From positions 1-43,631 of IMG/VR virus record IMGVR_UViG_3300038393_001615: 43,631 nt of DNA. One strand, given 5' to 3'. The position numbers and the translations under genes were made by a program. This stretch comes from a virus (Duplodnaviria > Caudoviricetes). Within the stretch, counting starts at the first letter, position 1; every line of letters starts with the position of its first letter. The notes below the pieces were generated by a model. It saw only the letters and a list, made by a program, of their open reading frames with translations. It was not told where the DNA came from and searched no databases. Of this stretch, positions 3,501 through 43,480 are shown piece by piece.

Positions 3501-4186
3501 AGGCCGCGTGGCTGGACTACCGCGACAAGGCGCGCGACGTGGCCAGCCAGGTGCGCGATCTGACCACGACCGCTTTCCAAGATATGGAAGATTCGATCGT
3601 CAACTTCGCCACCACGGGCAAGTTCCAGTTCAAGAGCTTCGCCACCGACGTGCTCAAAGAGATCGTGCGCATCGAGACGCGCATCCTGATCTCCAAGGCG
3701 GTGAGCGCGATCCTCGGCATGTTCGCGGGCAGCACCGCCCCCTCGGGCGCGGGCGACTCGTTGAACGGCGGCGCCAACTACACCGGCCCCGGCTCGCTGT
3801 CGACGAGCTGGGGCGGCGGCCGCGCGCTCGGCGGCCCGGTGCAGTCGAACACGATGTACGAGGTCGCCGAGGGCGGCAAGCCCGAGCTGTTGAGCATGGC
3901 GGGCCGCACGTACCTGATGACCGGCCAGAGCGGCGGCCACGTCACGCCGGCGAGCGCCGCGGGCGGTGGCGGCAGCGCAGGCGGCGCCAACGTGAGCGTC
4001 GCGGTGAACGTGCAGGTGACCCAGCAGAGCGACGGCAGCACCAGCTCGAAGACCTCCACCGATAGCAACAAGGCTGCCGGCAAAGAGCTGGGCGACATGA
4101 TGGCGTCGGTCGCCGAGCAGGCAATTAGCAAGGCGATGCGGCCCGGCGGCCAGATCTGGAAATTGACCGTGGGAGGCACGCGCTGA
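569..4186 (+). CDS. Tape measure protein (lambda-type)
   Basis: 1205 aa, Ala-rich and helical; N-terminal tape-measure motif (ALEQMFAKGKIQAQELRLQL); C-terminal lambda-type region (DWKNGAEAAWLDY...TGKFQFKSFA...GGPV...YEVAEGGKPEL). Confidence 0.95.
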   Translation: MTTVATLDTVLRLNSAAFRQGMIGAAAQANASLSSIQKKAAETASVLLQLKRAANTFGSFYLVKEGVASLIEAQKQLQSIQYTLQAATGSSTVAADALAFVRKEAAQLGLVIPDAAEGFAKLSASATAAGVSMNDQKELFDAYAKSSATLHLSATQSSRALLALEQMFAKGKIQAQELRLQLGQAIPGAAQRFQNAVMEMTKGTNLAGKSFDQLLEAGDLTTSKFLPALVSALRDSGRGWQDAAHGLNAELNRVQTAWFNLKSEVSGGLFGDAVTVGARLLANNLDSIASSITLIGGGALARVLGTQLASGAGKVQRLAEEVRGSQMAAAAEAQYTEKTLAAASASTAHAEAAALENQVVKDLAADALADAKAREIEAFGIKEVALAEMQRLEAAAALNETLATGTAAKRAQAEIDARLAATSEALVMAERQMTKAVIEQTAARNTLAMAEEREAALRAGVTVAAETEAAAQAAATAAKEASLALGGVGAAALRAAKSFGSFALGLVGGPWGAAVLGIGAVSYAIYEGIKAHQEYERETQNEVQSLVNLRTELQATAEDYGKLHAAKNYSQALDVYNGSADQVQKLRDELDKLTADRDALDKAMASGHAGALAGQNMDDLNARIKALQEQLQPTEAQLQSLGAELSTNFVVSVDAAKAALERFKQGATMADVLGAFGDAVDAGRKQADDLKATIDSDSAALQAMGKSLANKILTDGKTNEQIAQARLDQQLATIKQQKLGQAQINAQLAAATQEAAPILDKARQADAADAAKKAAEAAKSAAKQQKEAYDSVVKSAFEKIATEREQLEGESKLTDAEKFRAKVLSDIDNGNLKVSGSAKAYLLALLDTGVALAKANKEEAEHQRSLALTAALEDQLASRLQNRRDQNAINAAGYGLGTEEVQQMQDELRIKQDYQRQIDQLNKQANKEPQGSTNAIGGADYKQRLADIQRAQAEETALYRQGVDDRLKAEADWKNGAEAAWLDYRDKARDVASQVRDLTTTAFQDMEDSIVNFATTGKFQFKSFATDVLKEIVRIETRILISKAVSAILGMFAGSTAPSGAGDSLNGGANYTGPGSLSTSWGGGRALGGPVQSNTMYEVAEGGKPELLSMAGRTYLMTGQSGGHVTPASAAGGGGSAGGANVSVAVNVQVTQQSDGSTSSKTSTDSNKAAGKELGDMMASVAEQAISKAMRPGGQIWKLTVGGTR

Positions 4187-4524
4187 TGGCCACGCAGACG
4201 TTTACTTGGATTCCGCTGATCGGCCCGACTGGCTCGGCGAAGCTGCGCACGCGCAAAGCGCAATACGGCGAAGGCTACCGGCAGGTATTGCGCGACGGCC
4301 CGAACAACAAGGTGCAATCGTGGCCCTTCACGTTCCGCGGCAAAGGGGCGGACATGCAGGCGATCGTCGACTTCCTCGACGCGCGCGGCGGCGACGAGTC
4401 GTTCTACTTCACCCCGCCGCTGGGCGTGCAGGGCTACTTCAAGTGCGAGGAATACACGATGGTGCCCGAGGGTAATGGCGTGTTCACCGTCTCGGCGACC
4501 TTCGAGCAGGACTTCAAGCCATGA
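4186..4524 (+). CDS. Minor tail protein M (distal tail, lambda gpM-like)
   Basis: TFTW...AQYGEGYRQ...DGPNN...FLDARGGDESFYFTPP...ATFEQ; directly follows the TMP. Confidence 0.9.
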   Translation: MATQTFTWIPLIGPTGSAKLRTRKAQYGEGYRQVLRDGPNNKVQSWPFTFRGKGADMQAIVDFLDARGGDESFYFTPPLGVQGYFKCEEYTMVPEGNGVFTVSATFEQDFKP

Positions 4525-5216
4525 CCGGCAAGCTCTTTGCGGACGTCCAAACGTTGGAGCCGGGCGAGGACGTCTACCTGTTCGATCTCGATGCGCGTCC
4601 GATCACCGGCGGCGGAGCGGGCGACGTGCTGCACTTCCACGGCTACACGCAGGTGGGCGACATCATCTGGCAAGGCATCACCTTCAAGGGCTGGCCGTGC
4701 CAGATCCAGGGCGTGCAGAAGACCAGCGACCAGCAGCCGACGCCGACGTTCTCCGTGGGCAACATCGACGGGTCCATCAGCGCAATGTGCCTGGCCTACG
4801 AGGATATGGTCGGCGCCAAGCTGACGATCCACCGCACGCTGGGCAAGTACCTCGACGGGCAGCCTGGCGCGAACACCACGCAGGAGGCGTTGGACGTCTG
4901 GTACGTCGAGCGCAAGGCGCTGGAGACCAACACCGACGTGCAGTTCGAGCTGTCCAACGCGATCGACTTCGCCGGCGCGCAGCTGCCCGGCCGCCTGATC
5001 GAGTCGAGCCAGTGTGGCTGGTTGCACATCAGCGGCTACCGCGGCCCGGACTGCGGCTACACCGGCGGCCCCGTGGCCGACAAGAACGATGAACCCACGA
5101 GCGATCCGTTGCTCGACGACTGCGCGGGCCTCGTGCGCTCGTGCAAGTTCCGCTTCGGGACCAACGGCCAGCTCCGTCACGGCGGCTTCCCAGCAGCAGG
5201 CCTGGTGCGCTCGTGA
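4521..5216 (+). CDS. Minor tail protein L (lambda gpL-like, four conserved Cys)
   Basis: LFDLD...FH...PTPTFSVGNIDG...VQFELS...LPGRLI; C-terminal CGW..YRGPDCGYTG..DDC..SCKFRFG..GGFP. Confidence 0.92.
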   Translation: MTGKLFADVQTLEPGEDVYLFDLDARPITGGGAGDVLHFHGYTQVGDIIWQGITFKGWPCQIQGVQKTSDQQPTPTFSVGNIDGSISAMCLAYEDMVGAKLTIHRTLGKYLDGQPGANTTQEALDVWYVERKALETNTDVQFELSNAIDFAGAQLPGRLIESSQCGWLHISGYRGPDCGYTGGPVADKNDEPTSDPLLDDCAGLVRSCKFRFGTNGQLRHGGFPAAGLVRS

Positions 5217-5986
5217 GCCTCGAACCGCAGGTGCTGGCGGATTTCAAGGCGCATGCCGTCGCAGAGTATCCGCGCGAGTGCTGCGGTCTTGCCGTGGTGT
5301 TCAAGGGCCGGCAGATCTACGTGCCTTGCCGCAACCAAGCGGAGACGCCGGCGGAGCATTTTATCTTGCACCCGGAAGACTATGCAGCGGCCGAGGACCG
5401 CGGCGAGATCATCGCCGTGCTCCACTCGCATCCCAACGTGCCGGCGCGCGCCAGCGAAGGCGACCGGGTTTCCTGCGAGGGCTCTGGGCTGCCCTGGTAC
5501 ATCGTCAGCGTGATGCCGAGTGAGACCGAGGGCCAGCCGCCCGAGCCGCGCGAGGTGAACAGCATCGTGCCGGAAGGCTACGAGGCGCCGCTGGTCAACC
5601 GGCCGTTCGTGCACGGCATCCTCGACTGCTACTCGCTCTGCCGCGACTGGTACAAGCGCGAGCACGGCCTGGTGCTGCCGGACTTCGAGCGCCGCGATGC
5701 TTGGTGGAACGACGGCAGCTCCAGCCTCTACGAGCAGCACTTCGCCGAGGCCGGCTTCGAGGTGGTGACGCGCACGATCAAAGAGAACCTGGACGTGCTG
5801 CGGCCGGGCGACGGCATCCTCATGCAGATCGACGCCCGCAACCAGGTGCCCAACCACGCGGCGATCTACCTGGGCGACGGGCTCATGCTCCATCACCTCT
5901 ACAACAGGCTTTCTTCACGCGACGTTTACGGTGGCCCGTGGCTCGACTACACTCGCGCCATCGTCCGGCACCGGAACCTCAAGTGA
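5213..5986 (+). CDS. Tail assembly protein K (JAB/MPN metalloprotease + NlpC/P60)
   Basis: GTG overlapping the gpL stop; YPRECCGL and HSHPxxxxxxSxxD JAB motifs; DCYSL and HAAIYLGDGLMLHH NlpC/P60 motifs. Confidence 0.92.
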   Translation: MSLEPQVLADFKAHAVAEYPRECCGLAVVFKGRQIYVPCRNQAETPAEHFILHPEDYAAAEDRGEIIAVLHSHPNVPARASEGDRVSCEGSGLPWYIVSVMPSETEGQPPEPREVNSIVPEGYEAPLVNRPFVHGILDCYSLCRDWYKREHGLVLPDFERRDAWWNDGSSSLYEQHFAEAGFEVVTRTIKENLDVLRPGDGILMQIDARNQVPNHAAIYLGDGLMLHHLYNRLSSRDVYGGPWLDYTRAIVRHRNLK

Positions 5987-7062
5987 CTGCCCGTACCGTT
6001 CGGCTCTATGGCGAAATGGGTTCGCGCTTCGGGCGCGTGCACCGCTTCCACCTCGATTCCGACAGCCCTGCCGAAGCCGTCCAGGCGCTCATGTCGCAGG
6101 TGCCCGGCGTGCGCCAGTACCTGATGAGCGCCAAGAAACGGGGCGTCGGCTTCACGGTATTCGCCGGCCGCCAGAACCTGGCCGAGAATGAGCTGACGCT
6201 ACCGGCGGCCGCTAACGACGATGACATTCGCATCGCTCCGGTGCTGATGGGTTCCAAGAAAGGCGGCGTGCTGCAGGTGATCGTGGGCGTCGTGCTCGTG
6301 GCCGCCGCGGCGATCCTGTCGTTCACGCCCTACGCTGCCGCGTCGCCTTACTTGTACGCGGCCGGCATCTCGATGATCGCCGGCGGCGTCGTGCAGCTGC
6401 TCACGCCCCTGCCGAAGGGTCTGCACTCGAAAGACAGCGCCGGCAACATGCCGAGCTACAGCTTCAACGGGCCGGTCAACACGCAGGCCCAGGGCAATCC
6501 GGTGCCGCTGCTCTACGGCGGCCCGCTCAAGGTCGGCAGCGCGGTCATCAGCGCCGGCATCGACACGCTCGAAACCGTCTACGCCCAAGGCGGCCTGACC
6601 GTCGGCCATATGGGCGGTGGCGGCGGTTGCCCGGAGTTGAACATGCCGGTGCGCGTCGTGCGCAACGAGCGCGAGGTCGAGATCCCAGCGTGCGAGGTCC
6701 GCGCGGGCGACGTGCTGGTGACCGCCGATCCGGTGACGCTCGCGCCCGGCCGCGCGGTGGTGCGCTACAGCGAGCCGAAGCTGCAGCCCTGCGTGGGCGT
6801 GGTGCTGGCCGATCGCAGCCTGCATTGCTCGCGCAGCGCGCCGCTGCCGACGCCTACGGGCCTCTCTGACGCGCCGGACGTGGAAGGCTTGGCCGTGGCC
6901 GCCCTGCACGACGGTGAGGCGCGCTGGGACCGCGTGCTGGGCGTGTACGACCGCGGCATGCGCGAAGTCCAGCACATCGACATCGACAACGGCTGCTTCT
7001 GGGCCGGCGGCGTTCTGCACCACAACAAGCAAGCCAACATCACCGCACAGGACGGTCGCTAA
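5983..7062 (+). CDS. Tail assembly protein I (ubiquitin-like N-terminus) fused to a C-terminal Hint/intein-like domain
   Basis: GTG overlapping the gpK stop; VRLYG..FGR..SPAEAVQAL..IRIAPVLMGSKKGG, hydrophobic hairpin, SYSFNGPVNTQAQGNPVPLLYG..VGSAVISAGI; then GGGGG-C216...HHN348. Confidence 0.9.
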   Translation: MTARTVRLYGEMGSRFGRVHRFHLDSDSPAEAVQALMSQVPGVRQYLMSAKKRGVGFTVFAGRQNLAENELTLPAAANDDDIRIAPVLMGSKKGGVLQVIVGVVLVAAAAILSFTPYAAASPYLYAAGISMIAGGVVQLLTPLPKGLHSKDSAGNMPSYSFNGPVNTQAQGNPVPLLYGGPLKVGSAVISAGIDTLETVYAQGGLTVGHMGGGGGCPELNMPVRVVRNEREVEIPACEVRAGDVLVTADPVTLAPGRAVVRYSEPKLQPCVGVVLADRSLHCSRSAPLPTPTGLSDAPDVEGLAVAALHDGEARWDRVLGVYDRGMREVQHIDIDNGCFWAGGVLHHNKQANITAQDGR

Positions 7063-10000
7063 TGAACGCTGTGCTCAAAGGCGCGAAGGGTGGCGGCAGC
7101 CAGCCGCAAGGCTCGACCGAAGCGCCCGATACCCTCACCTCGACTGCGCGAGCGCGCATCCTCGACCTGGTGAGCGAGGGGCCGATCCTCGGCTTCCGCA
7201 ACGGCGGCACGAACCCGCTGCAGGACGTCTATCTCAACGAGACGCCGGTCGCCAACCCGGACGGGTCGCTCAACTTTTCGGACGTCTACATCGACTCGCG
7301 CTCCGGCACGAACACCCAGGATTACATGCCTGGCTTCCCGGCGGTCGAGAACGAGTTTGGCGTGGGCACCGAGTTGAAGTCGACGGCCCCGTGGGCGCAG
7401 GCGATCAACAACCTCGACCTCACCGCCGTGCGCATCCGCCTGTCGGTGCCGTCGCTGCAGCAGAGCAACGCGTCGACCGGCGACATCACCGGCTACCGGA
7501 TCGCGTACACCATCGAGCTGTCGACCGACGGCGGCGCGTTCGTGCAGGTAGTCAGCTCGGCGTTCTCGGGCAAGACCTCTAGCAAGTACGAGCGCACGCA
7601 CCGCATCCCGCTGCCGGCCGCCACGACCGGCTGGACGGTGCGCGTGACGCGCCTCACCGCGAACAAGAACCTCGCCACCGTGGCCGACACGACGACGGTC
7701 GAGAGCTATACCGAGATCATCGACGCCAAGCTGCGCTATCCCAACAGCGCGCTCGTCGGCATCATCATCGACGCCCAGCAGTTCTCGAATATCCCCACGC
7801 GTGCCTACGACCTCTACGGCCGCATCGTCAGCGTGCCGAGCAACTACGATCCGACCACGCGTGCGTACACCGGCGTCTGGGATGGCTCGTTCAAGCCCGC
7901 GTGGACGAACAACCCGGCGTGGATCTTCTACGACCTGGCCACGCATCCGCGCTACGGCCTCGGCCGCTACGTCACCGCGGCGCTGATGAACAAGTGGGTG
8001 CTCTACTCGATCGCCCAGTATTGCGACCAGCTCGTGCCGGACGGCCGCGGCGGTCAGGAGCCGCGCTTCACCTGCAGCCTCTACATGCAAACGCAGGCCG
8101 ACGCGTACAAGGTGCTCAACGATCTCGCCTCGGTGTTCCGCGGCCAGATGTACTGGGCCGGCGGCGCGATTCAGGCGGTCGCGGACATGCCTGGCGACCC
8201 GGACTACGACTACTCGCCGGCGAACGTCATCAACGGCGAGTTCCAGTACGCCGGCAGCGGCCGCAAGACCCGCTACACCGTCGCGCAGGTGAGCTGGAAC
8301 GACCCGGACGACTTTGGCCGCGCCAAGGTCGAGACGGTCATCGACCGCGACGGCTTGAAGCGCTACGGCTTCCAACCGACGCCGATCATCGCGGTCGGCT
8401 GCACCTCGAAGGGCCAGGCCCAGCGCCTCGGCCTCTGGGTGCTCTACACCGCGCGCCTGGAGACCGAGACGGTCGTGTTCAAAGTCGGCGCCGACGGCAT
8501 CGTGGCCAACCCCGGCCGCATCGTCCGCGTGTTCGATCCGGCGCGCGCCGGCAAGCGCCAGGCGGGCCGCATCCACTCGGCAACGACGACTTCGGTCGTG
8601 GTCGACCAGATGCCCGACCTCGTGGCGATCGGCGACACGATCTCGTGCACCACGTCAGACGCGGTTACCGAGACGCGCACCATCAGCGCGATCGACGGCC
8701 CGAGCAAGACCATCACCGTCAGCAGCGCGTTCTCCGAGGTGCCGGCGGCCGAGACGATGTGGGGCGTGGAGAGCATGTCGCTTGTCGCGGCAACCTACCG
8801 CGTGTTGAGCGTGGCCGAGCCTGCGTCGACCGACGAGGCGCTGGAGTACACGATCACCGCGCTGCGCCACAACGCAAGCAAGTTCGACGCCGTGGACATC
8901 GGCGCCGCGATCGAAGACCCGCCGATCACCACCATCCCGCCGCCCTCGCAGCAGGGGCCGGCGCAGGTAGTGCTGTCCGCCGCGCCGGTCAAAGGCGCCG
9001 TGCTGGTCTCGATCCAGCTCAACATTCAGTGGCTCCCCGCGCTGGGCGCGGTGAAGTACCGCGTCGAGTGGCGCCGCGACAACGGCAGCTGGAATGAGCT
9101 GGCCCCGCAAACCGGCCTGTCGGTGGATCTGCCCAACGCCGACCCAGGCTCCTACGAGGCCCGAGTGTTCGCGATCGGCGCCGGCGGCAACAGCTCGCTC
9201 CCGGTGTACGCCGACGCCCTCGCGGTCGACGACCCGACGACGCTGCCAACGACGGTCGAGGCGATCCAGACCCAGGCCAACGAGGCGGCAACCGACTCGT
9301 CGAACGCGCTCGCGCAGCTGGCCTACATCGCCAGCGACAACACGCTCGCGCAGGGCGAGAAGTCGCTGGTGCTGCGTGACTACTCGGTCATTACCACTGA
9401 GCAGGCGGGCATCGACGCCGAGGCCGCGCGCTACAACATCACCACCGAGAAGACCGCCTACGACAACGCGATCTCGGCGTGGTCAGCGTACCTCGGCACG
9501 CTGACCACGCCGACGCTGTGGAGCGACATCAGCGGGGATACCGACATCGTGGGCGCGACGTGGCGCGCGAAGTGGACGGCCGTCTATACGGCTCGACAGA
9601 CGCTGCTCAACAAGATCCTCGCTTCGGCCAAGGCCAACGGCGACTACGCGGTGAACCTGGGGCTTAGCGCACCCGTGGTCAACCCCACTTTCCGCAACGG
9701 GCTCGACAGCTGGACGTTCGACACGGCCGGCGCTGGCGAGTGGGCGACGGGTTCCGGCGGCAACACCCCGGACTCGGCGCAGACGACGTTCCTGCAGCAC
9801 ACGGGCGTTGCCGGGCAGGTGACGACGTGCGCGCACAACACGGGTGGCGGCATCCCGGTCAAGGTCGGGCAGACGGTCACCGCGATGGTGGCGCTGCGCG
9901 CGGTCAACCCCAACGCCACGGCACGAGCCTACGTTCGCATCGGTTGGCGCAATAGCGCCGGCGCGCTGTTCAGTAACTCGACGCAAGGCGTGACGATCTG

Positions 10001-11561
10001 CACGACGACTGCCGGGTCCAACTACTTCGTCCAGGGCGTCAGCCGCGTCTACGGCACGGCGCCTGCGGGGGCGGTCAGCGCCTGCGTGGAGATCGAGTTC
10101 GACAGTCACACTTCTGGCTTCTATACCGCCACGTCCGCCTGGATCGCCGCCGGCCACGCCAGCGCCGACGAGATCCCCGAGTCGGACGTGCGCAAGTGGG
10201 CGGCGGAGAGCGGCGCAGACGTGACCGCCGGCAAGAGCCTCGACGTCCTCGTGGACGGCACCTACGTGCGCCAAATGATGCCTACGGGCACGGGCTACGC
10301 GTGGCCGATCGACAACGCTACGATGGCGGCGCAGGCAGCCTGGGGGGATGGGGGCAACGGGCATGCGTACTACCAAGGCGCTGGCCCCGCGCCGGCTGTC
10401 GGCAGCCAGTACCTGGTGCTGCAGGCGACGGCCGCCGGCGGGTATATCCAGTACTACCGAATGTTCCCCGTTGTTCCAGGCGACAACATTTCGGCCACGG
10501 CGCTCATTTATGCGGCGTCGGGGATCAACTGCTATCTAGCCGTCAATTTTCTCAACGCTGCGGGCAGCTATATCGGTCGCTTTACGACCCAAGGTTCCAC
10601 ATCGGTAGCGTGGCTTACCCGCCAGGGCAGCGGCGTGGTTCCCGTAGGAGCAGTAAAGGCGTACCTCACGCTGGGCATGGACGCGGCGGGTTACGCGGCG
10701 CTCAACTTTCTATCGGTAGCGACGAACGATGTTCGGGTCGCTGGCAGCGGCGCGCGCCTCGGTGATCTGCGCAACCAGGTGATGGTCGGCGTGGGCAACT
10801 ACGCCTCGGGCTGGACCGGCGGCGGCATCACGTACAGCGCGACCACGACCAGCGCGACCATCAGCGTTGCCGCCGGCACGCTGCAGATCGGCAGCGCCTC
10901 GCTGACCTACAACGCGTCCAGCACGACGGTTAGCGGCTCGGCCGGCGCGACCCGCACCTACTACCTCTACTACGACGACGGCGGGTTCACCGGCGGCGCC
11001 AAGACCCTCAACGCCACGACCAGCACGATCACCGCGCTGGCGGCAGACGGCCGCGTGTTGATCGGCAGCGTGACCTTCACCTTCCCGACCAGCGGCACGG
11101 GCTCTGGCGGCGGCGGCACGAGCTGCCCCAGTGTGGATGCGTGGGTGATCCGCCGGGTCGAGGACTCGGAGGGCGACTACGAGCACGTCCGCGCTGGCGA
11201 GATCGAAGTCGACGACTACCTGCTGCTCACCAGCGGCGCCTGGGGCCGGGTGACCTACTCCAACCGCGTGCTGCAGCCGGGCGTTCGCGTGTACGATCGC
11301 GACGGCCACACGCTGACGTGCTCGCGCAGCGCTCCGCTGGAGCTGGCTGGCGGCGCTGGCATCACGGCCGCGCATGCCAAGGGTCATTCGGTTCGAGTCC
11401 GCCACGCCGGCGCTACGCGGCTGGCGCAGATCGCCCAGACAGAGGACGTCGGTGCACTATGGGTCCAGCACATCACCTGCGAGAACGACTACTTCTGGAC
11501 GGGCGACTTCCCGACGTTCCTGTTCGCGCATCACAATCTCAAGCCGATCGGCAACAACTGA
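7062..11561 (+). CDS. Central tail fibre / tip attachment protein J with C-terminal carbohydrate-binding-like modules and a terminal Hint domain
   Basis: GAKGGG..PDTL, LVSEGPI, KLRYPNSA, WDGSFKPAWTNNPAWIFYDL, QYCDQLVPDGRGGQEPRF, FN3-like segment; GSGGGGTS-C1355...HHN1492. Confidence 0.95.
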   Translation: MNAVLKGAKGGGSQPQGSTEAPDTLTSTARARILDLVSEGPILGFRNGGTNPLQDVYLNETPVANPDGSLNFSDVYIDSRSGTNTQDYMPGFPAVENEFGVGTELKSTAPWAQAINNLDLTAVRIRLSVPSLQQSNASTGDITGYRIAYTIELSTDGGAFVQVVSSAFSGKTSSKYERTHRIPLPAATTGWTVRVTRLTANKNLATVADTTTVESYTEIIDAKLRYPNSALVGIIIDAQQFSNIPTRAYDLYGRIVSVPSNYDPTTRAYTGVWDGSFKPAWTNNPAWIFYDLATHPRYGLGRYVTAALMNKWVLYSIAQYCDQLVPDGRGGQEPRFTCSLYMQTQADAYKVLNDLASVFRGQMYWAGGAIQAVADMPGDPDYDYSPANVINGEFQYAGSGRKTRYTVAQVSWNDPDDFGRAKVETVIDRDGLKRYGFQPTPIIAVGCTSKGQAQRLGLWVLYTARLETETVVFKVGADGIVANPGRIVRVFDPARAGKRQAGRIHSATTTSVVVDQMPDLVAIGDTISCTTSDAVTETRTISAIDGPSKTITVSSAFSEVPAAETMWGVESMSLVAATYRVLSVAEPASTDEALEYTITALRHNASKFDAVDIGAAIEDPPITTIPPPSQQGPAQVVLSAAPVKGAVLVSIQLNIQWLPALGAVKYRVEWRRDNGSWNELAPQTGLSVDLPNADPGSYEARVFAIGAGGNSSLPVYADALAVDDPTTLPTTVEAIQTQANEAATDSSNALAQLAYIASDNTLAQGEKSLVLRDYSVITTEQAGIDAEAARYNITTEKTAYDNAISAWSAYLGTLTTPTLWSDISGDTDIVGATWRAKWTAVYTARQTLLNKILASAKANGDYAVNLGLSAPVVNPTFRNGLDSWTFDTAGAGEWATGSGGNTPDSAQTTFLQHTGVAGQVTTCAHNTGGGIPVKVGQTVTAMVALRAVNPNATARAYVRIGWRNSAGALFSNSTQGVTICTTTAGSNYFVQGVSRVYGTAPAGAVSACVEIEFDSHTSGFYTATSAWIAAGHASADEIPESDVRKWAAESGADVTAGKSLDVLVDGTYVRQMMPTGTGYAWPIDNATMAAQAAWGDGGNGHAYYQGAGPAPAVGSQYLVLQATAAGGYIQYYRMFPVVPGDNISATALIYAASGINCYLAVNFLNAAGSYIGRFTTQGSTSVAWLTRQGSGVVPVGAVKAYLTLGMDAAGYAALNFLSVATNDVRVAGSGARLGDLRNQVMVGVGNYASGWTGGGITYSATTTSATISVAAGTLQIGSASLTYNASSTTVSGSAGATRTYYLYYDDGGFTGGAKTLNATTSTITALAADGRVLIGSVTFTFPTSGTGSGGGGTSCPSVDAWVIRRVEDSEGDYEHVRAGEIEVDDYLLLTSGAWGRVTYSNRVLQPGVRVYDRDGHTLTCSRSAPLELAGGAGITAAHAKGHSVRVRHAGATRLAQIAQTEDVGALWVQHITCENDYFWTGDFPTFLFAHHNLKPIGNN

Positions 11562-19905: not shown

Positions 19906-21711
19906 ATGCCGACGCTTCGCCCATACCAAGCTCAACTGGAACACGGCATTTACTCCGCGTGGGCCGAGTTGGAAGCCGCGAATCCGGTGCCTCCGCCGGG
20001 CGGCCACGTGGTAGGCATCCAAAGTCCGACCGGCTCGGGCAAGACGGTCACGTTCTGCGACGTGATGAGCGCCCACAACTGCGCCAGCGCCGCCATCGCG
20101 CACCGCAAAGAGCTGGTCAGCCAGATGTCGATTGCCCTCGCGCGCAACGGTGTGCGCCATCGCGTCGTCGGCCCCGATGCGCTGCGCCGCGAGATCACCA
20201 GCCTCCATATGGCCGAGCTGGGGCGCAGCTACTACGACCCGAGCGCCCGCTGCGGCGTGGTCGGCATTGACTCGCTTCCGGGTCTCAGCGATTGCGACCC
20301 CTGGCTCAACCAGGTGCAGCTCTGGATCGGCGACGAGGGCCATCACTTCCTGCGCGAGAACAAGTGGGGCCAAGGCGTCGCGAAGCTGCGCAACGCGCGC
20401 CGCGGGCTGCTCGCTTCCGCAACGTGGTTCCGCGCAGACGGCAAGGGTCTGGGCCGCGGCGTGTTGTTGCCCGACGGCAAGTGGAGCAACGACGGCATCG
20501 CCGATCGCCTGGTGCTCGGCCCGTCGATGCGCGACCTCATCGACCAGGGCTATCTCACCGACTACAAGCTGATCGCGCCGGAGTCGGACATCGACTACTC
20601 GCAGGTGCCGGTCACCGAGAGCGGCGATCTCTCACCGGCGAAGCTGCGCGCGGCCGTGCACAAGTCGACGCGCATCGTTGGCGACGTGGTGGAGCACTAC
20701 CTCAAGTTCGCCGCGGGCAAGGTCGGCGTGACCTTCGCCGTGGACATCGAGGCGGCCACGGAGATCGCCGCCGCGTACCGCGCCGCGGGCGTGCCGGCCG
20801 AGGTCATCAGCTCCAAGACGCCGCCGGCGCTGCGCGCGCTGCTGCTGCGCCAGTTGCGCAACCGCGAGATCCTGCAGCTGGTCAACGTCGATCTGTTCGG
20901 CGAGGGCTTCGATCTGCCGGCGATCGAGGTCGTGTCGATGGTGCGCAAGACCGAGAGCAAGTCGCTCTACGACCAGCAGTTCGGCCGCGGCCTGCGCCTG
21001 ATGATCTCGAAGGATCTGCAGGATCGCTGGGATACCTTCACCGACACGGAGCGCCGCGCCCACATCGCCGCGAGCCCGAAGCCCTACGCCATCATCATCG
21101 ACCACGTGGGCAACTGGGAGCGCCACCTGCCGCCCGACGGCCCGCGCTTCCATACGCTCGATCGTCGCGAGCGCCGCGCACGCACGCTGCCGGTCGACGC
21201 CATCCCGCTGCGGGCGTGCTTGAACAAGAATCCGCTGTGCCTGCGCACCTACGAGCGCGTGCTGCCCAAGTGCCCCTACTGCGGCCATAAGCCGGTGCCG
21301 ACGGAGCGCTCCGCGCCGGAGCTGGTCGACGGCGACCTGGCCGAGGTCGATCCAGCCGTCATCGCCGCGCTGTGCGGCCGCGTGGCCAAGGTCGACGGAG
21401 CGTTCTACGCGCCGGCCGGGCTCGAAGGCGCCGCGGCGCAGGCGGCCAAGAATCGCCACGTCGAGCGCCAGCATGCGCAACGCGAGCTGCGTGGTGCCAT
21501 CGCCCTCTGGAGCGGCTACCAGACCGTGCTGGGCCGCGAGATGGCCGAGCAGCACCGCCGGTTTTTCCATATGTTCGGCATCGACGTGCTGACCGCCCAG
21601 TCGCTCGGGCGCCCGGAAGCCGAGGCGCTGCACGCTCGAATCACAGAACGCTTGACTGCTGACGGTATCGTCAGTAGTGTTGGCCACGCTCAACTACCGG
21701 AGTTTGCTTAA
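19906..21711 (+). CDS. Superfamily 2 DNA helicase with C-terminal zinc finger
   Basis: LRPYQ, PTGSGKT, DEGHH, SAT, DLFGEGFDLP, YDQQFGRGLR, IIDHVGN, C..C/CPYCG. Confidence 0.92.
   Translation: MPTLRPYQAQLEHGIYSAWAELEAANPVPPPGGHVVGIQSPTGSGKTVTFCDVMSAHNCASAAIAHRKELVSQMSIALARNGVRHRVVGPDALRREITSLHMAELGRSYYDPSARCGVVGIDSLPGLSDCDPWLNQVQLWIGDEGHHFLRENKWGQGVAKLRNARRGLLASATWFRADGKGLGRGVLLPDGKWSNDGIADRLVLGPSMRDLIDQGYLTDYKLIAPESDIDYSQVPVTESGDLSPAKLRAAVHKSTRIVGDVVEHYLKFAAGKVGVTFAVDIEAATEIAAAYRAAGVPAEVISSKTPPALRALLLRQLRNREILQLVNVDLFGEGFDLPAIEVVSMVRKTESKSLYDQQFGRGLRLMISKDLQDRWDTFTDTERRAHIAASPKPYAIIIDHVGNWERHLPPDGPRFHTLDRRERRARTLPVDAIPLRACLNKNPLCLRTYERVLPKCPYCGHKPVPTERSAPELVDGDLAEVDPAVIAALCGRVAKVDGAFYAPAGLEGAAAQAAKNRHVERQHAQRELRGAIALWSGYQTVLGREMAEQHRRFFHMFGIDVLTAQSLGRPEAEALHARITERLTADGIVSSVGHAQLPEFA
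21652..21680 (+). promoter_or_regulatory. Sigma70-like promoter with a TGACG-GTAT-CGTCA palindrome in the spacer
   Basis: TTGACT-17-TAGTGT upstream of the 21711 gene cluster. Confidence 0.6.
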
Positions 21712-21947
21712 TGATCCGCGTTCCCGTACTACTCGGCTTCAACCACGCGCAGCAGATCGGCACGCTGGAGGTCGACGAGAAACAACTGCCTCCTGGCGCC
21801 GGCTATCACTTCGCGCTCGGCTATCGCGTGCTCGAACACAACGGCGCGTTCGCGGAGAAGATCGAGCTGCTGTGCGTGGGCCTCACGCCCGACGACCAAT
21901 TCCGGCCCGAGACGCTGCCGCGGCCTTTCGACGGGAGCGCCGCATGA
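21711..21947 (+). CDS. Hypothetical protein
   Basis: TAATG coupling, GGAG RBS. Confidence 0.7.
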   Translation: MIRVPVLLGFNHAQQIGTLEVDEKQLPPGAGYHFALGYRVLEHNGAFAEKIELLCVGLTPDDQFRPETLPRPFDGSAA

Positions 21948-33636: not shown

Positions 33637-34112
33637 TCCGCGTCTACGTCGGCGCCGTGCTGCTGGTGCTCGCCGGACTGGGCATCTGGGTTTACGGGCA
33701 TCACCAGTACGACGCCGGCGTAGCTTCCGTGCAGGCGCAGGACAACGCGCTGCGCGCGAAGTGGGCTATCGAGGTCATGCGTGACCAAGAGGCCAAGGGT
33801 GCCGCGCTCGACGCCGCGGCGCAGCAGTATCACGAGGATCTTGCCCATGTCCAAGAGCAAACTGATCGCACTCTCGCTAGCGAGCGCGCTGGCACTATCC
33901 GGTTGCGCCAGCGTTGGCTGTCCTGTACCGCCGAAGCAGCCGCCGCTGCCCGCGGTGGACCCAGCGCTGATGGAACCGCCGACCGGGGCGCAGGAATTGC
34001 GCTCGATCTTTTTCGAGCCGTCGACCCCCTCGTCCAGCGACAAGACGCAAAAATCCGCGGGCTCCAAGCCGCGTTGAGGGCCGATCGTGCCCACACGCCC
34101 GCCTCGCCATAA
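33633..34112 (+). CDS. Inner-membrane spanin (Rz-like)
   Basis: N-terminal TM, coiled coil, GTIRLR..C..., DAKIRGLQ. Confidence 0.85.
   Translation: MIRVYVGAVLLVLAGLGIWVYGHHQYDAGVASVQAQDNALRAKWAIEVMRDQEAKGAALDAAAQQYHEDLAHVQEQTDRTLASERAGTIRLRQRWLSCTAEAAAAARGGPSADGTADRGAGIALDLFRAVDPLVQRQDAKIRGLQAALRADRAHTPASP
33847..34077 (+). CDS. Outer-membrane spanin lipoprotein (Rz1-like), embedded in Rz
   Basis: GAGGA RBS; MSKSKLIALSLASALALSG-C lipobox; Pro-rich mature part; +1 frame inside Rz. Confidence 0.85.
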   Translation: MSKSKLIALSLASALALSGCASVGCPVPPKQPPLPAVDPALMEPPTGAQELRSIFFEPSTPSSSDKTQKSAGSKPR

Positions 34113-34464
34113 GCCACCTGGCTATCGTCGCACCGCGCCCGGCCCGGAGCCGCGGCCGCCGATCCGCAAGCACCAGCCGCGCGAGTCGGCGCACCGCCGC
34201 GGTTACACCCGCGCCTGGCAGAAAGCGCGCGAGGGCTACTTGCGTAAGCACCCGCTCTGCGTGCATTGCCTGGCGAAGGATCTGGTCGTGGCCGCAACCG
34301 TGGTCGACCACATCGTTCCGCACCGGGGCGACGAGAGACTGTTCTGGGATAGTGTTAACAATTGGCAAAGTTTATGTGAAAGCTGCCACAATCGGGCTAC
34401 GGTACTTTTCGACGGTGGTTTTGGTAATGAGCGTAAGGAAGGGAAAACTGACGGCCGCTGGTGA
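34087..34464 (+). CDS. Terminase-associated HNH endonuclease (HK97 gp74-like)
   Basis: RGYTRAWQKAR..HPLCVHC..ATVVDHIVPHRGD..LFWD..NWQSLCESCHN. Confidence 0.92.
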   Translation: MPTRPPRHKPPGYRRTAPGPEPRPPIRKHQPRESAHRRGYTRAWQKAREGYLRKHPLCVHCLAKDLVVAATVVDHIVPHRGDERLFWDSVNNWQSLCESCHNRATVLFDGGFGNERKEGKTDGRW

Positions 34465-34987
34465 GCCTCGGTGCTACGACTGCTCGCAGCCGGCAGCGCC
34501 AGGCCGCACTCGATGCGCCACGCATTTCGCCCTGTCCGCAGAGCGAGCCAGGCAATGGCGCGAGCGTCATCCGGACCGATTGCAGGAGCTTCGGCGGCAG
34601 CAGTACCAGCGCCGCCAGGAGGAAGTGAAGGCGCGTAGCCGTCAGTGGTCCGCGGAGAACCGTGAACGGAAGCGCGCGACGGGCAAGGCATGGGCGCTTG
34701 CGAACCCCGATCGGGTACTCAACAGCCGGATGAAACGCTTTGGCATTACCGCCACGCAGTACAAGCAACTTCTGGCGGACCAAGGCGGCGTTTGCGCGAT
34801 CTGCGGCTCGGCCGATCCGAAGGGCCGAGGTCGTTTTGCGGTCGACCACGATCATGCCGCCGAAGCCTCCGGAGAGCTTGTCGTACGAGGGCTCCTTTGC
34901 AGCCCGTGCAACCTCGGCCTTGGGTACTTCTACGACGACCCCGAAAAACTGCGTGCGGCTGCTCGGTATCTGTCGGAGGCCGAGTAA
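34427..34987 (+). CDS. Endonuclease VII-family (His-Me) free-standing endonuclease
   Basis: FGITATQYKQLLADQGGVCAICG..FAVDHDH..VRGLLCSPCNLGLG; N-terminal CYDC..CATH. Confidence 0.88.
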   Translation: MSVRKGKLTAAGEPRCYDCSQPAAPGRTRCATHFALSAERARQWRERHPDRLQELRRQQYQRRQEEVKARSRQWSAENRERKRATGKAWALANPDRVLNSRMKRFGITATQYKQLLADQGGVCAICGSADPKGRGRFAVDHDHAAEASGELVVRGLLCSPCNLGLGYFYDDPEKLRAAARYLSEAE

Positions 34988-37251: not shown

Positions 37252-38512
37252 GTCGATCGCGACCTTTTTCACCCAGCTCGGCGGCGTGCTCGGCACCGTG
37301 GGCGCTGGCTGGTATCCCAGCGGCGCCGCGCAGGGCATGGCCCCCTTCCGGTCGGTCGGCTCCGAAGCGGGGCAGACGGTCAGCCCCGGCACCGCGCTGC
37401 AGCTCTCGACCGTCTGGGCGTGCGTCCGCCTGATCGCCGAGACCATCGCCTCGCTGCCGATCAAGCTCTACCAGTTCGACGCCGACGGCAAGCGCGTGGC
37501 GCTGACCTCCGGCTCGATCTGGCGCATGCTGACCTACTCCCCGAATGCGCTGATGACCGCCGTCGAGTTCTGGGAGATGATCGTCACCTCCCTGTGCCTC
37601 TGGGGCAACGCCTACGCCCTCAAGCAGCGCGTTGGCGGCCGCGTGGTCAGTCTCGACCCGTTGCGGCCCGAGTACATGACGGTGGTCCGCCGCAACGGCG
37701 TGCTGTCCTACGTCTACACACCGGCCGGCGCCGTGGGCCTGTCCACGATCGAGTACACCGCCGACGACATTCTGCACATCAAGGGCTTCGGCGTTGACGG
37801 CCTCGTCGGGCTCTCGCCGATCGCGATGGCCCGGCAGACGCTCGGCCGCGCGATTGCCACCGACCAGGCCAGCGGCAAGGTCTTCACGTCGGGCCTGACG
37901 GCGAGCGGTTTCATCAAGTACGAAAAGGCGTTTGTCACGCCCGAGCAGCGCGAGGCAGTCCGCGCCACGATCGAGCGTTTCACCGGCAGCTCGAACATCG
38001 GCAAGACGATGGTGCTGGAGAACGGCATGGAGTACGTGCCGATCACCATGAACCCGTCGGATGCCCAGATGCTGGAGAGCCGTGAGTTCAACGTCGAGGA
38101 AATCTGCCGCTGGTTCGGTGTGCCGCCGCAGCTGATCGGCCACATCAACAAGGCCTCGTCTTGGGCAAGCTCGCTGGAGAACACGACCCTCGGGTTCGTC
38201 AAGTTCGCGCTGCGCCCGTACCTTACGCGCATCGAGCAGGCGGTCATGCGCTCGCTCGGCATGGCGCCCAGCAGCGGCCAGATCAAGTTCAACCTCGAAG
38301 CGCTGCTGCGCGGCGACAGTGCGGCCCGCGCGGCGCTCTACGCCAGCTCCGGCCAGAACGGCTGGCAGACCCGCGACGAGATCCGTGAGCACGAGGACAT
38401 GGAGCCGATGGGCGGCAACGCTGGCGTGCTGACCGTTCAATCGAACCTCGTTCCTCTCGACAAGTTGGAAGAAATGGGCGGCAAGCAGCCCGTACCGGAG
38501 CCAAGCAAATGA
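37244..38512 (+). CDS. Portal protein, HK97 family
   Basis: VWACVRLIAETIASLP, LWGNAY, ILHIKG..GLSPI, DAQMLESR..EICRWFGVPP, LLRGD. Confidence 0.97.
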   Translation: MSKSIATFFTQLGGVLGTVGAGWYPSGAAQGMAPFRSVGSEAGQTVSPGTALQLSTVWACVRLIAETIASLPIKLYQFDADGKRVALTSGSIWRMLTYSPNALMTAVEFWEMIVTSLCLWGNAYALKQRVGGRVVSLDPLRPEYMTVVRRNGVLSYVYTPAGAVGLSTIEYTADDILHIKGFGVDGLVGLSPIAMARQTLGRAIATDQASGKVFTSGLTASGFIKYEKAFVTPEQREAVRATIERFTGSSNIGKTMVLENGMEYVPITMNPSDAQMLESREFNVEEICRWFGVPPQLIGHINKASSWASSLENTTLGFVKFALRPYLTRIEQAVMRSLGMAPSSGQIKFNLEALLRGDSAARAALYASSGQNGWQTRDEIREHEDMEPMGGNAGVLTVQSNLVPLDKLEEMGGKQPVPEPSK

Positions 38513-39168
38513 AAACCAAGTTCCTCTCCGTCCCGCTCGCGCTCAAGGAAGGCGGCCTCCAGCCTGACGGCACCTTCACCGGCTACGGCTCCGTGTTCGG
38601 CAACGTCGACTGCTACAACGAGATCGTGCCGAAGGGCGCCTTCGCCAAGTCCCTCAAGACCTGGGCCAAGCGTGGCGGCCTGCCGGCCCTGCTGTGGCAG
38701 CACAACCCCAGCGAGCCGATCGGCGTCTACACGAGCATGGTCGAGGACGATCATGGCCTGCTCGTCACCGGCCAGCTGTCGCTGGACACGACCCGCGGCA
38801 AAGAGGCCTACGCGCTGCTGAAAATGGGTGCATTGAACGGCCTCTCGATCGGCTTCGTGGCCACGGAATGGACGACCAACAAGACCTCCGGCGTGGTGAC
38901 GCTCGACGTCATCGACCTGTGGGAGATCTCGCTGGTCACGTTCCCAGCTAACTCCGAGGCGCGTGTAGACGTGGTGAAATCCGCGTTGAAAGCTGGCACA
39001 CTTCCTTCACTTTCGGATTTTGAGAGCTTCCTGCGCGAGGCAGGGTTCTCGAAAAGCGAGGCTACTGCGATCGCAAGCAAGGGTCTCGGACAACTGCGCC
39101 GGCGTGAGGCTGGCAACCAAAGCGACCTCAACCTGGCCGACATCATGGCCGTCATTTCAGGAGCATAA
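38509..39168 (+). CDS. Prohead protease, HK97 family
   Basis: FTGYGSVF, LLWQH, GLSIGF, LWEISLVTFPAN. Confidence 0.96.
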   Translation: MKTKFLSVPLALKEGGLQPDGTFTGYGSVFGNVDCYNEIVPKGAFAKSLKTWAKRGGLPALLWQHNPSEPIGVYTSMVEDDHGLLVTGQLSLDTTRGKEAYALLKMGALNGLSIGFVATEWTTNKTSGVVTLDVIDLWEISLVTFPANSEARVDVVKSALKAGTLPSLSDFESFLREAGFSKSEATAIASKGLGQLRRREAGNQSDLNLADIMAVISGA

Positions 39169-39170
39169 CC

Positions 39171-40502
39171 ATGAACGCTCGCAAGACCTTGGCGGCCGCC
39201 ATCGGCGCCACCCTGGCCCTGGTAGGGCTCGGCAAGTCCGACTCGAACCTCGTCAAGCACTACGGCCAGCGTCCCGGCCGCAAGGATGGCGTGGATCCCG
39301 AACAGCTCAAGTCCGCCCTGGCCATCGCGCTGCAGCAGCGTGATGCTGACCTCCGTCGCCTGATCGAAAAGGCCGAGGCCGACATCAAGAGCACCGGCGA
39401 GATCGCCACCGAGACCAAGACCTCGCTGCAGAAGCTCTCCGCCGACGGCGTGAAGCTGCAGGAACAGCTCGCCGGCATCGAGCAGGAGATCGCCGCGCTC
39501 AAGTCGTTCGGCCAGGACCGCAGCCAGGCGCAGAAGTCCATCGGCATGCAGTTCACCGACGGCGACGAGTTCAAGGCGCTGCAGAGCCGTGGCGTGTCCG
39601 CGTTCAAGGGCACCATCAGCATGAGCTTGAAGGCGGTGACCAACGTCACCAGCTCGACTGGCGGCACCACCGGCGACGCCGGCGCTGCGGTCGCCCCGGA
39701 CCGCCTGCCCGGCATCCAGGGTCCGGCGCTGCGCCAGTTCACCATCCGCGACCTGCTGCTGCCGGGCCGTACCAGCTCGAACCTGGTGCAGTACGTGCAG
39801 GAGACCGGCTACCAGAACAACGCTGGTCCGGCCGCGGAAACCACGCTCAAGCCGCAGTCCGACATCAAGTTCACGCTCAAGGACAGCCCGGTTCGCACCC
39901 TGGCGCACTGGCTGCGTGCGTCGAAGCAGATCCTGGCCGATGCGCCGATGCTGCAGAGCTACATCGACACCCGTCTGACCTACGGCCTCAAGTACGTCGA
40001 GGAAGCCCAGCTGCTGTCGGGCGACGGCACCGGCGAGAACCTGCTGGGCCTCATCCCGCAGGCGACCCCGTACAACGATGCGCTGCGCGTGGCGGGTGAC
40101 ACCAAGATCGACACGATCCGTCGTGCGATCCTGCAGGTGCGCCAGGCCGAGTACCGCGCTAGCGCGGTCGTGCTGAACCCGGCCGACTGGGCGGACATCG
40201 AGCTGACCAAGGACGCCAACGACCGCTACATCTGGGTCAACGTCGGCACCGGCGCGTCGCCGCAGCTGTGGCGTCTGCCCGTGGTCGACTCCAGCGCCCT
40301 GCCCGCCGGCCATTTCATGGTCGGTGCGTTCAACATGGCGGCCCAGGTGTTCGACCGCGAAGATGCCAACGTCTCGGTCTCGACCGAAGACGGCGACAAC
40401 TTCGTCAAGAACCTGGTGACGATCCGTGCCGAGGAACGCCTGGCGATGGTTGTGTTCCGGCCGGAGTCGTTCGTCTACGGTCCGTTCGTGCAGGCCACCT
40501 GA
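39171..40502 (+). CDS. Major capsid protein, HK97 fold, with delta domain and an extra hydrophobic leader
   Basis: AGGAG RBS; coiled-coil delta domain; ASKQILADAPML, LLSGDGTGENLLG, VLNPADW, DNFVKNLVTIRAEERLA. Confidence 0.97.
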   Translation: MNARKTLAAAIGATLALVGLGKSDSNLVKHYGQRPGRKDGVDPEQLKSALAIALQQRDADLRRLIEKAEADIKSTGEIATETKTSLQKLSADGVKLQEQLAGIEQEIAALKSFGQDRSQAQKSIGMQFTDGDEFKALQSRGVSAFKGTISMSLKAVTNVTSSTGGTTGDAGAAVAPDRLPGIQGPALRQFTIRDLLLPGRTSSNLVQYVQETGYQNNAGPAAETTLKPQSDIKFTLKDSPVRTLAHWLRASKQILADAPMLQSYIDTRLTYGLKYVEEAQLLSGDGTGENLLGLIPQATPYNDALRVAGDTKIDTIRRAILQVRQAEYRASAVVLNPADWADIELTKDANDRYIWVNVGTGASPQLWRLPVVDSSALPAGHFMVGAFNMAAQVFDREDANVSVSTEDGDNFVKNLVTIRAEERLAMVVFRPESFVYGPFVQAT

Positions 40503-40556: not shown

Positions 40557-40757
40557 GTGAAGCATCTGGTGCTCAAACCCTTCCACCTCGACGAGGCCGG
40601 GCGCATCGTCCAGCGCGGCGAGATCGTGACCTTGGACGACCAGGTTCGCAGCATGGATCTCTGCCGCCAGCCGGACGCGTTGCTCATGGTGCTGCCCGGC
40701 GAAAGCCGCTCGGCGCCCCAGAACCGGAACGCTGCTCCGCAGCGCCGCACGAAATGA
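40557..40757 (+). CDS. Small hypothetical protein after the capsid gene
   Basis: GGAG RBS, GTG start; stop coupled to the next gene. Confidence 0.65.
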   Translation: MKHLVLKPFHLDEAGRIVQRGEIVTLDDQVRSMDLCRQPDALLMVLPGESRSAPQNRNAAPQRRTK

Positions 40758-41290
40758 TCTATCACCTGACCGCGTGGAAGACCGGCGACATCGGCGGCGG
40801 ACTCAACGCGGCCATCGAGCCCTTGCCGGATGACGCGTGGATCTGCGCGCGCGACGGCGACACCCTGTTTCTTACCCCGACGTGGGGCAAGTTGGTCGAG
40901 CAGATCGTCGAGCAGAACGGCGACGACTACGCGGTGATCGGTTGCATGACCAATCGCCTGCGCGCTCCCTACCAGCTCCACGGCGGCAAGTTGAGCGAGG
41001 AAGCCGACATCGGCGTCCACGTCCAGATCGCCCAGCAGCGCCAGCAGACCTACGGCGCCTCCGTGCAGGCCGTCAGCGGCCCGGTCGCGGGGCTCTGCCT
41101 GATCTTCCGCAAGGCGACGTGGGCGCGGCATCCGTTCGTGACGCGCTCGATCTACTTCGACCAGTTTTTCTGTGACGCCGCGCGGAGCAACCACGGCCGC
41201 GTCGGCGTGGCCCTCGGGCTCTACCTGTTCCATCTCTACCGTTGGGGCAAACCCAACCCTGTCGGCTACGTGGGGCACCTCTCGCCATGA
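40754..41290 (+). CDS. Putative glycosyltransferase (GT-A / family 2-like)
   Basis: GGGLNAAI..DAWICARDGDTLFL (DxD after a beta strand), AVIG, VAGLCLIFRKATW, YFDQFFC, LYLFH. Confidence 0.65.
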   Translation: MIYHLTAWKTGDIGGGLNAAIEPLPDDAWICARDGDTLFLTPTWGKLVEQIVEQNGDDYAVIGCMTNRLRAPYQLHGGKLSEEADIGVHVQIAQQRQQTYGASVQAVSGPVAGLCLIFRKATWARHPFVTRSIYFDQFFCDAARSNHGRVGVALGLYLFHLYRWGKPNPVGYVGHLSP

Positions 41291-42874: not shown

Positions 42875-42889
42875 TCCCAGGAGAACGAG

Positions 42890-43480
42890 ATGAAATACCT
42901 GACGCTGTTTGGCCAGCTCCTGATCCTCGCGATCGTGGCGCTGGTGACCTTCCCCCGCCGAGTGCTCAGTGCCACCGTGCGAGTCATCGCCCGCGTGGCG
43001 GCGTACCTGCACGGCAACCAGAAGCACTACGGCCTGCGCTACGGCTACAAGGCCGGCAACGGAGCCGTGACCGCCCAGGGCTTCAAGCTCGAAGTGTCGG
43101 TCGACGACGGCACGACCTACGTCGAGGTGAGCAACATCACCACGATCCCCGACGTTGCCGGCGAAGCGTCCGATCTGGACGTGACCAACCTGTCGAGCAC
43201 GCAGAAGGAATACATCGCCGGCCTGCGGGATACGCAGTCTGCCTCGATCGAAGGCCAGCGCGTGGCCACCGATGCGGGCCAGAACATTCTGCGCGACAAC
43301 GCCGGCGCCACGCAGCCGCTCAAGTTCAAGAACACCTACGCCGACGGCGCCATCCTCACCTACGCAGCCACGGTCAAGAAGTTCTCCGTGACTGGCGGCG
43401 TGGATGCCGTCGAGATGTTCAGTGCCTCCATCCGTGCCTCGGGTGACGAGGTGTGGACTGGCACCGGCGCCCCGACCTGA
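42890..43480 (+). CDS. Major tail tube protein with an N-terminal hydrophobic leader
   Basis: AGGAG RBS; LDVTNLSSTQKEYIAGLRD, DAGQ, GGVD..SIRASG; sits between tail terminator and chaperone. Confidence 0.9.
   Translation: MKYLTLFGQLLILAIVALVTFPRRVLSATVRVIARVAAYLHGNQKHYGLRYGYKAGNGAVTAQGFKLEVSVDDGTTYVEVSNITTIPDVAGEASDLDVTNLSSTQKEYIAGLRDTQSASIEGQRVATDAGQNILRDNAGATQPLKFKNTYADGAILTYAATVKKFSVTGGVDAVEMFSASIRASGDEVWTGTGAPT

What the first reader, a model, noticed from the sequence alone, without database searches (positions are those of the whole stretch)
39171..39290. Capsid and tail tube share a hydrophobic N-terminal leader ending in KHYGxRxGxKxG
Seen: the capsid starts MNARKTLAAAIGATLALVGLG...KHYGQRPGRKDG (motif 39255-39290). 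The tail tube starts MKYLTLFGQLLILAIVALVTFP...KHYGLRYGYKAG (motif 43022-43057). Eight of 12 positions are identical in otherwise unrelated folds, and both ATGs have AGGAG RBSs. Established: the HK97 capsid and typical tube proteins have no signal-like leader; HK97 maturation cleaves after Lys; some Firmicutes phages share a cleavable N-terminal motif between structural proteins (Prp-processed). Inference: a common leader tethers the two most abundant virion proteins to the membrane or marks them for one protease or modifying enzyme.
Basis: partly seen in the sequence, partly recalled or inferred. Interest (0 to 1): 0.82.

Follow-up and report, generated by a model that had tools for sequence, protein, structure and literature searches.

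The report
Lysine-ended leader on capsid and tube
In a group of uncultured phages the head protein and the tail-tube protein both begin with an add-on segment ending in the same ten-residue tag, which is likely clipped off at its last lysine, possibly by the phage's own head protease, and if so would tie tail building to head maturation.

Summary
Confirmed and conserved. The motif [KR]-H-x-G-x-R-x-G-x-K ends an N-terminal extension in 32 of 33 tube proteins and 44 of 120 capsid homologues; those 44 form one lineage. All 6 relatives whose capsid and tube starts were both read on one contig carry it on both. A tube-trained profile picks the capsid leader as best non-tube hit in 7 of 7 loci. Leaderless tubes put Met1 on the motif Lys, so the leader is likely removed there. 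The capsid Lys matches an older Phi-x-R-K site in 71 of 75 sister capsids. The phage's S78 protease is the best candidate enzyme, but the fit is only moderate, and a host protease remains possible. 'Hydrophobic' holds for tube leaders (26 of 32) but not capsid leaders (0 of 44). Separately, capsid and tube share a C-terminal Thr, beside a glycosyltransferase gene. It works like the Prp/L27 leader system but is not a member. The scan earlier noted shared virion leaders with other motifs on other DNA, not this motif. No cleavage has been measured.

The parts
39171..39284 (+). Capsid N-terminal leader, residues 1-38, ending in the motif Lys38 (motif KHYGQRPGRK at 39255-39284)
39159..39163 (+). 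AGGAG ribosome-binding site of the capsid gene
39171..40502 (+). HK97-type major capsid protein (leader, delta domain, capsid). Predicted delta junction Lys154 at 39630-39632; ends in Thr
42890..43051 (+). Tube N-terminal leader, residues 1-54: predicted helix 2-40, then a low-confidence coil with motif KHYGLRYGYK at 43022-43051
42879..42883 (+). AGGAG ribosome-binding site of the tube gene
42890..43480 (+). Lambda gpV-type tail tube protein; ends in Thr
38509..39168 (+). Prohead protease, family S78 (His65 and Ser113 invariant in 23 aligned proteases); candidate processing enzyme
40754..41290 (+). Putative glycosyltransferase (PHROG 14179; relative of phi92 gp166), the only member of the clade's three-gene cassette found in this phage; likely linked to the C-terminal Thr, not to the leader

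Best explanation
Capsid and tail tube of this phage lineage carry an N-terminal add-on ending in the same ten-residue tag, [KR]-H-x-G-x-R-x-G-x-K, which is likely a propeptide cut off at the final Lys, most likely by the phage's own S78 prohead protease. Shown: the tag is in frame, conserved and shared by both proteins, and it ends where leaderless homologues start. Inferred: the capsid tag grew out of an older Phi-x-R-K site at the start of the delta domain, and the tube gene later gained a copy. Inferred: the tube's hydrophobic helix holds the precursor in a membrane- or chaperone-bound, non-polymerising state until it is cut, so one enzyme would release both bulk subunits. The cut itself, the exact bond (after or before the Lys) and the enzyme are untested.
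For: 32 of 33 tubes and 44 of 120 capsids carry G-x-R-x-G-x-K, with His at P9 in 43 of those 44 capsids. The upstream segment varies freely in length (leader 28-55 aa in tubes, 14-38 in capsids). Of 150 profile hits, 109 align from profile positions 40-50; Met1 falls on the Lys position (42) in 46 of them and on 41-45 in 90. Codons of the fixed residues vary synonymously, and no start codon near the Lys is conserved. AlphaFold puts the tube motif in a low-confidence coil (residues 42-60) outside the tube fold. HK97 is cut at K103/S104 (PMC10275583, passages), and the matching Lys154 is invariant in 19 aligned capsids. 71 of 75 sister capsids have Phi-x-R-K, with the same modal spacing of 18 residues to the delta R-D (40 of 71, against 34 of 43 in the clade), and their named hosts span several beta- and gammaproteobacterial genera. 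Predicted delta junctions outside the clade can read R-I-G-R-K|A (L121) or Q-F-G-T-K|A (L011), like the leaders. S78 is the only protease that BLAST finds shared by the window and the relatives G001, G002 and G004.
Against: The clade's own predicted S78 sites (I-L-Q-L-K|A at the delta junction, L-D-L-K|D in the protease) lack the His, Gly, Arg and Gly that the leaders keep, which suggests another reader. Profiles of predicted S78 sites rank the leader Lys only moderately among 470 Lys sites: medians 0.75-0.92 for tubes and 0.48-0.92 for capsids over nine settings. Tails normally assemble apart from heads, and in SPN3US the reported prohead-protease substrates are head proteins (PMC10052503, passages). 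That HK97 gp4 works inside the prohead is recalled, not checked here. Other capsids of the same family with S78 genes carry leaders without a fitting Lys (L013, L018, L024). A cut inside a delta domain that is digested anyway would not need so strict a motif.
Confidence: 0.5

Rival explanations
1. The tag is a propeptide removed by a host protease, as Prp does for 80alpha capsid and scaffold; the phage protease only digests the delta domain.
For: The strict H-x-G-x-R-x-G determinants are absent from the clade's own S78 sites. There is precedent for one host-cut motif on non-homologous proteins, including the phi13 major tail protein (PMC5744158, passages). A cytoplasmic enzyme reaches tube precursors easily.
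Against: No L27-like host carrier of the motif was found: 65 of 201 genomes sampled from the phylum of the Devosia-labelled genome G006 have no match, and 28 of 29 inspected matches were out of frame with my gene calls. Prp and long L27 are described as absent from Proteobacteria such as E. coli (PMC9405229, passages). The host is unknown, so this test is loose.
Confidence: 0.27
2. The tag is mainly a binding address for a chaperone, the glycosyltransferase or another phage factor, read before the leader is lost; cutting is secondary.
For: For 80alpha scaffold the N-terminal sequence is needed but its cleavage is not (PMC5744158, passages). A glycosyltransferase gene lies between capsid and tube in every clade locus that covers the interval. 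P8 is identical in capsid and tube in 6 of 15 pairs against 2.5 expected (p 0.012, relatedness ignored).
Against: The same glycosyltransferase family sits in head modules whose capsids lack the motif (L123, L125) and in phi92. The leader persists in pairs whose capsid and tube have both lost the terminal Thr. No other variable motif position co-varies.
Confidence: 0.13
3. The leader is a membrane anchor common to both proteins, and the basic motif only sets the topology (positive-inside).
For: 26 of 32 tube leaders have a strongly hydrophobic segment, and all leaders tested are net positive (+3 to +9).
Against: 0 of 44 capsid leaders reach that hydrophobicity, and one is only 14 residues long. 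Fixed His and Gly positions are not needed for charge.
Confidence: 0.08
4. Chance likeness or mis-called starts.
For: 3 of 1891 gene pairs in this genome reach 8/12 identity.
Against: The motif is conserved in both families and shared in every pair read. A Shine-Dalgarno-like site precedes the upstream ATG in the 23 genes listed. 14 of 15 IMG/VR matches to the capsid pattern are these leaders.
Confidence: 0.02

Closest known systems
Prp (MEROPS C108) processing of L27, Staphylococcus phage 80alpha capsid and scaffold, and the phi13 major tail protein
   Same: One short motif at the end of an N-terminal extension on non-homologous virion proteins, in front of the normal start (PMC5744158, PMC9405229; passages).
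   Different: The motif here is basic, Gly-rich and Lys-ended, not LQ(F/L)F|A. The leaders are longer (14-55 aa) with a helical, often hydrophobic front part. The phage has a delta domain and its own S78 protease. No Prp-like gene or host carrier of the motif was found.
HK97 gp4 (S78) removal of the delta domain at K103/S104
   Same: Same capsid and protease families, same gene order, conserved junction Lys, and a Lys at the predicted leader cut.
   Different: HK97 gp5 aligns only from residue 52 of this capsid, so it has no such leader. My searches found no tail-tube substrate for this protease family.
Mycobacteriophage virion glycosylation (Freeman et al. 2023)
   Same: Glycosyltransferase genes in tandem; capsid and tail tube modified at their C-termini (seen only through citing passages in PMC11600133 and PMC12619734). 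Here capsid and tube share a terminal Thr.
   Different: This bears on the C-terminus, not the leader. The host group differs and glycosylation is untested here.
T4 gp21 / SPN3US gp245 multi-substrate prohead proteases
   Same: One phage protease removes N-terminal propeptides from several virion proteins (PMC10052503, passages).
   Different: Their reported substrates are head proteins; here the second substrate would be the tail tube.

Membership tests
Prp/L27-type leader system | Cleavage motif MLxx(D/N)LQ(F/L)F|A(S/H)KK-like | tested here: not met
   Motif in PMC9405229 against [KR]HxGxRxGxK
Prp/L27-type leader system | Prp cysteine protease in phage or host | tested here: inconclusive
   No Prp hit among the 18 late-region proteins scanned or the 8; the early region was not scanned against families; host unknown
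Prp/L27-type leader system | Same motif on a conserved host protein | tested here: inconclusive
   No universal carrier in 201 sampled genomes; the true host may not be among them
Prp/L27-type leader system | Shared motif on non-homologous virion proteins, placed before the normal N-terminus | tested here: met
HK97-type head maturation (S78) | Portal, S78 protease and delta-domain capsid in order | tested here: met
HK97-type head maturation (S78) | Intact His/Ser catalytic pair | tested here: met
   H65 and S113 invariant in 23 proteases; their assignment as catalytic is recalled from HK97 gp4
HK97-type head maturation (S78) | Leader Lys fits the protease's site preference | tested here: inconclusive
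   Moderate percentile ranks against predicted, not measured, sites
HK97-type head maturation (S78) | Measured cleavage of the leader by the protease | not testable with these tools
   Needs virion proteomics or co-expression
Signal peptide or membrane signal-anchor | Hydrophobic helix of about 19 residues on both proteins | tested here: not met
   Tube 26 of 32, capsid 0 of 44
Virion C-terminal O-glycosylation | Glycosyltransferase genes plus terminal Ser/Thr on capsid and tube | tested here: met
   phi92 is an exception
Virion C-terminal O-glycosylation | Glycan detected on virion proteins | not testable with these tools
   Needs mass spectrometry

The most novel reading that the evidence does not exclude
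An HK97-family prohead protease has been recruited as a tail-maturation enzyme. The tube gene captured the capsid's Lys-ended propeptide, so one phage protease unlocks both head and tail subunits and couples two assembly lines normally treated as independent. The membrane-seeking tube leader may also hide free tube monomers from the cell until release.
Probability: 0.35. Interest if true: 0.8.

Novelty: new variant of a known kind. Interest (0 to 1): 0.57.

Why it matters
The role of shared N-terminal leaders on virion proteins is still unclear even for Prp and 80alpha (PMC5744158). This lineage gives a second, sequence-unrelated case with a sharp motif, a natural leaderless outgroup and a small set of candidate enzymes, so the question can be tested by co-expressing three genes. 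If S78 cuts the tube, a head protease acts outside the head and links tail assembly to head maturation. The shared terminal Thr beside a glycosyltransferase cassette also points to virion glycosylation outside the mycobacteriophages.

Tried and rejected
The complex prediction of protease (1-165) with tube residues 36-70 gave no answer (score 0.02) and is not used as evidence. The AlphaFold capsid model is low confidence (mean pLDDT 48) and is not relied on. A search with capsid residues 1-90 found only the window protein. The single tube query found nothing in viral contigs. The tube DNA pattern gave 4 clade tubes among 11 matches, the rest unrelated. No solved structure matched the tube profile by sequence. 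No cultured close relative was found: tube hits in GenBank phages are 27-36% among the 40 listed of 45, and the two checked (L119, L121) are leaderless. An RNA or DNA element is rejected because synonymous codons vary, although the two window copies share 28 of 36 nt. Downstream starts are rejected because none is conserved. No third substrate was found in the window or in G001-G004; gene calls were my own simple ones, and genes cut at stretch borders were missed. A prepilin-type G|F site was considered by eye and dropped because QGF belongs to the tube fold. Ten literature searches found no description of this motif; the library lacks most subscription papers, Freeman et al. 2023 was not held, and no supplements were read.

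Full report
Setting. The window is a complete circular phage contig (127-nt terminal overlap, 67% G+C) with an HK97-type head module and a lambda-like tail. No cultured close relative exists in the GenBank phage set: best terminase 51%, best DNA polymerase 50%. The host is unknown. Clade proteins sit in genome bins labelled Telluria, Burkholderiales and Devosia, and sister capsids come from Pseudomonas, Achromobacter, Caballeronia and others. A proteobacterial host is therefore likely but not shown.

The observation. In one genome the 8/12 identity is only suggestive, since 3 of 1891 gene pairs reach it. Relatives settle it. Of 33 tube proteins, window included, 32 carry G-x-R-x-G-x-K at the end of a 28-55 residue extension; the one exception starts directly at the tube fold. 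That search was seeded with the leader-bearing query and may favour leader-bearing hits; in the unseeded profile search only 4 of the best 150 representatives carry the motif. Of 120 capsid homologues, 44 carry it, 43 of them with His at P9 and 43 with Asp after the Lys. In a quick tree these 44 and one truncated call lie on one side of a branch with SH-aLRT 99, and the other 75 lack the motif. All 6 distinct relatives whose capsid and tube starts lie on one fetched contig have it on both, one tube with Ser for the first Gly. Eight more pairs, inferred only from equal contig lengths, agree. A profile built from 31 relatives' tube motifs picks the capsid leader as best non-tube 10-mer in 7 of 7 loci (16.7-19.6 bits against at most 7.9). 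The reverse profile is weaker: the tube is best non-capsid hit in 6 of 7, by narrow margins over a terminase segment in three. Across IMG/VR, 14 of 15 matches to the capsid pattern are these leaders, several of them near-duplicates.

Anatomy. The shared element is ten residues, [KR]-H-x-G-x-R-x-G-x-K. What precedes it differs: strongly hydrophobic in 26 of 32 tubes, in none of 44 capsids, and nearly absent in one capsid. AlphaFold models the tube leader as a helix (2-40) followed by a low-confidence coil holding the motif, outside the gpV-type fold. Synonymous codons vary at every fixed position and no downstream start is conserved, so the constraint is on the peptide and the leader is translated. 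Among 109 of 150 representatives that align from profile positions 40-50, Met1 maps on the motif Lys in 46 and on positions 41-45 in 90. The leader is thus an add-on in front of the normal N-terminus, which is the main reason to infer removal. Whether the cut falls after or before the Lys cannot be told from this.

Origin. Of the 75 sister capsids, 71 have Phi-x-R-K near the N-terminus, with the same modal spacing to the delta-domain R-D as the clade's motif Lys. No gene of the non-clade loci among L001-L080 carried the motif as a leader (1426 called genes; the other matches were small reverse-strand ORFs, after I excluded an internal neck-protein match). I infer that the capsid site is old, was elaborated in this lineage, and was then gained by the tube.

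Which enzyme. The S78 protease is intact and is the only protease BLAST finds shared by the window and G001, G002 and G004; G003 is incomplete there. The window's tail-tip JAB/NlpC-P60 protein and Hint-like domains are not shared by BLAST. HK97 is cut at K103/S104 (PMC10275583, passages), the matching Lys is invariant in 19 capsids, and two outside junctions read like the leaders. Against this, profiles of predicted S78 sites (25 junctions, one of them mis-picked, and 31 protease N-termini) rank the leaders only moderately. The clade's own sites lack the His, Gly and Arg, and a head protease would have to act on a tail precursor. A host enzyme has precedent: Prp cuts 80alpha capsid and scaffold, and the same motif is noted on the phi13 major tail protein (PMC5744158, PMC9405229; passages). 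No universal host carrier of this motif appeared in 201 sampled genomes, of whose 298 matches I inspected 29. I put removal of the leader at about 0.8 overall, S78 at 0.5 and a host enzyme at 0.27.

A second shared tag. A glycosyltransferase gene lies between capsid and tube; relatives have a three-gene cassette homologous to a phi92 cassette. Only 2 of 62 called window genes end in Thr, and capsid and tube both do. Thr ends 33 of 44 motif capsids and 0 of the 76 others, and 26 of 33 clade tubes against 23 of 150 representatives. All 11 distinct glycosyltransferase-bearing loci with a capsid end in Thr, two of them unrelated leaderless phages, against 7 of 78 non-clade loci. The class of the last residue (Thr, Ser, other) agrees in 15 of 15 capsid/tube pairs (p 0.001, relatedness ignored). 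phi92 does not fit: its capsid ends Thr-Thr-Ala and its tube Gln. Mycobacteriophage capsid and tube are glycosylated at their C-termini (Freeman 2023, seen only through PMC11600133 and PMC12619734 passages). Because the leader persists where the Thr is lost, and the enzyme occurs without the leader, the two tags look independent.

Comparison and verdict. It works like the Prp leader system but fails its motif test. It is an HK97-type head with two additions that ten library searches did not find in print: this motif, and its presence on the tube. The scan's earlier notes describe shared virion leaders with other motifs in other genomes (unchecked), and none for this sequence or its relatives. 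The phenomenon therefore seems to recur, and this is a new variant of it. Interest 0.57.

Noticed in passing
window 40502 and 43480 (gene ends); 40754-41290: Capsid and tube both end in Thr and a glycosyltransferase gene lies between them. The last residue co-varies across capsid/tube pairs: candidate C-terminal virion glycosylation outside mycobacteriophages.
   Followed up: partly
window 5983-7062 and 7062-11561: Tail assembly protein I and tip protein J both end in a related domain of about 145 residues (33% identity, E 2e-14), with a Gly-rich linker, Cys and a terminal His-Asn. By eye it is Hint/intein-like; no Pfam hit.
   Followed up: partly
L013, L015, L016, L018, L021, L024, L035 capsid starts; P0222, P0300: Capsids of the same family carry several other leader classes: hydrophobic ones ending near A-x-G, G-x-R-I-x-F, and R-Y-M-R-A-P-D. 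Leaders seem to be swapped repeatedly.
   Followed up: no
P0161, P0174: Two distant tube proteins have long hydrophobic N-terminal extensions without this motif, ending at a Met that could be the true start.
   Followed up: no
window 4186-11561 against G001-G004: The window has a lambda-like tail tip, whereas its relatives with the same head and tube have a different tip module: a module swap.
   Followed up: no
L123 7840-11672: An unrelated leaderless phage with the same glycosyltransferase family ends capsid, tube and two connector proteins in Thr-Thr.
   Followed up: partly
G002 20936-21825 and 63188-64077: The 87-kb record holds a 93% identical 0.9-kb repeat about 42 kb apart and may be two related phages joined.
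   Followed up: no
window 34087-34987: An HNH nuclease gene and an endonuclease VII-like gene lie in tandem before the small terminase.
   Followed up: no
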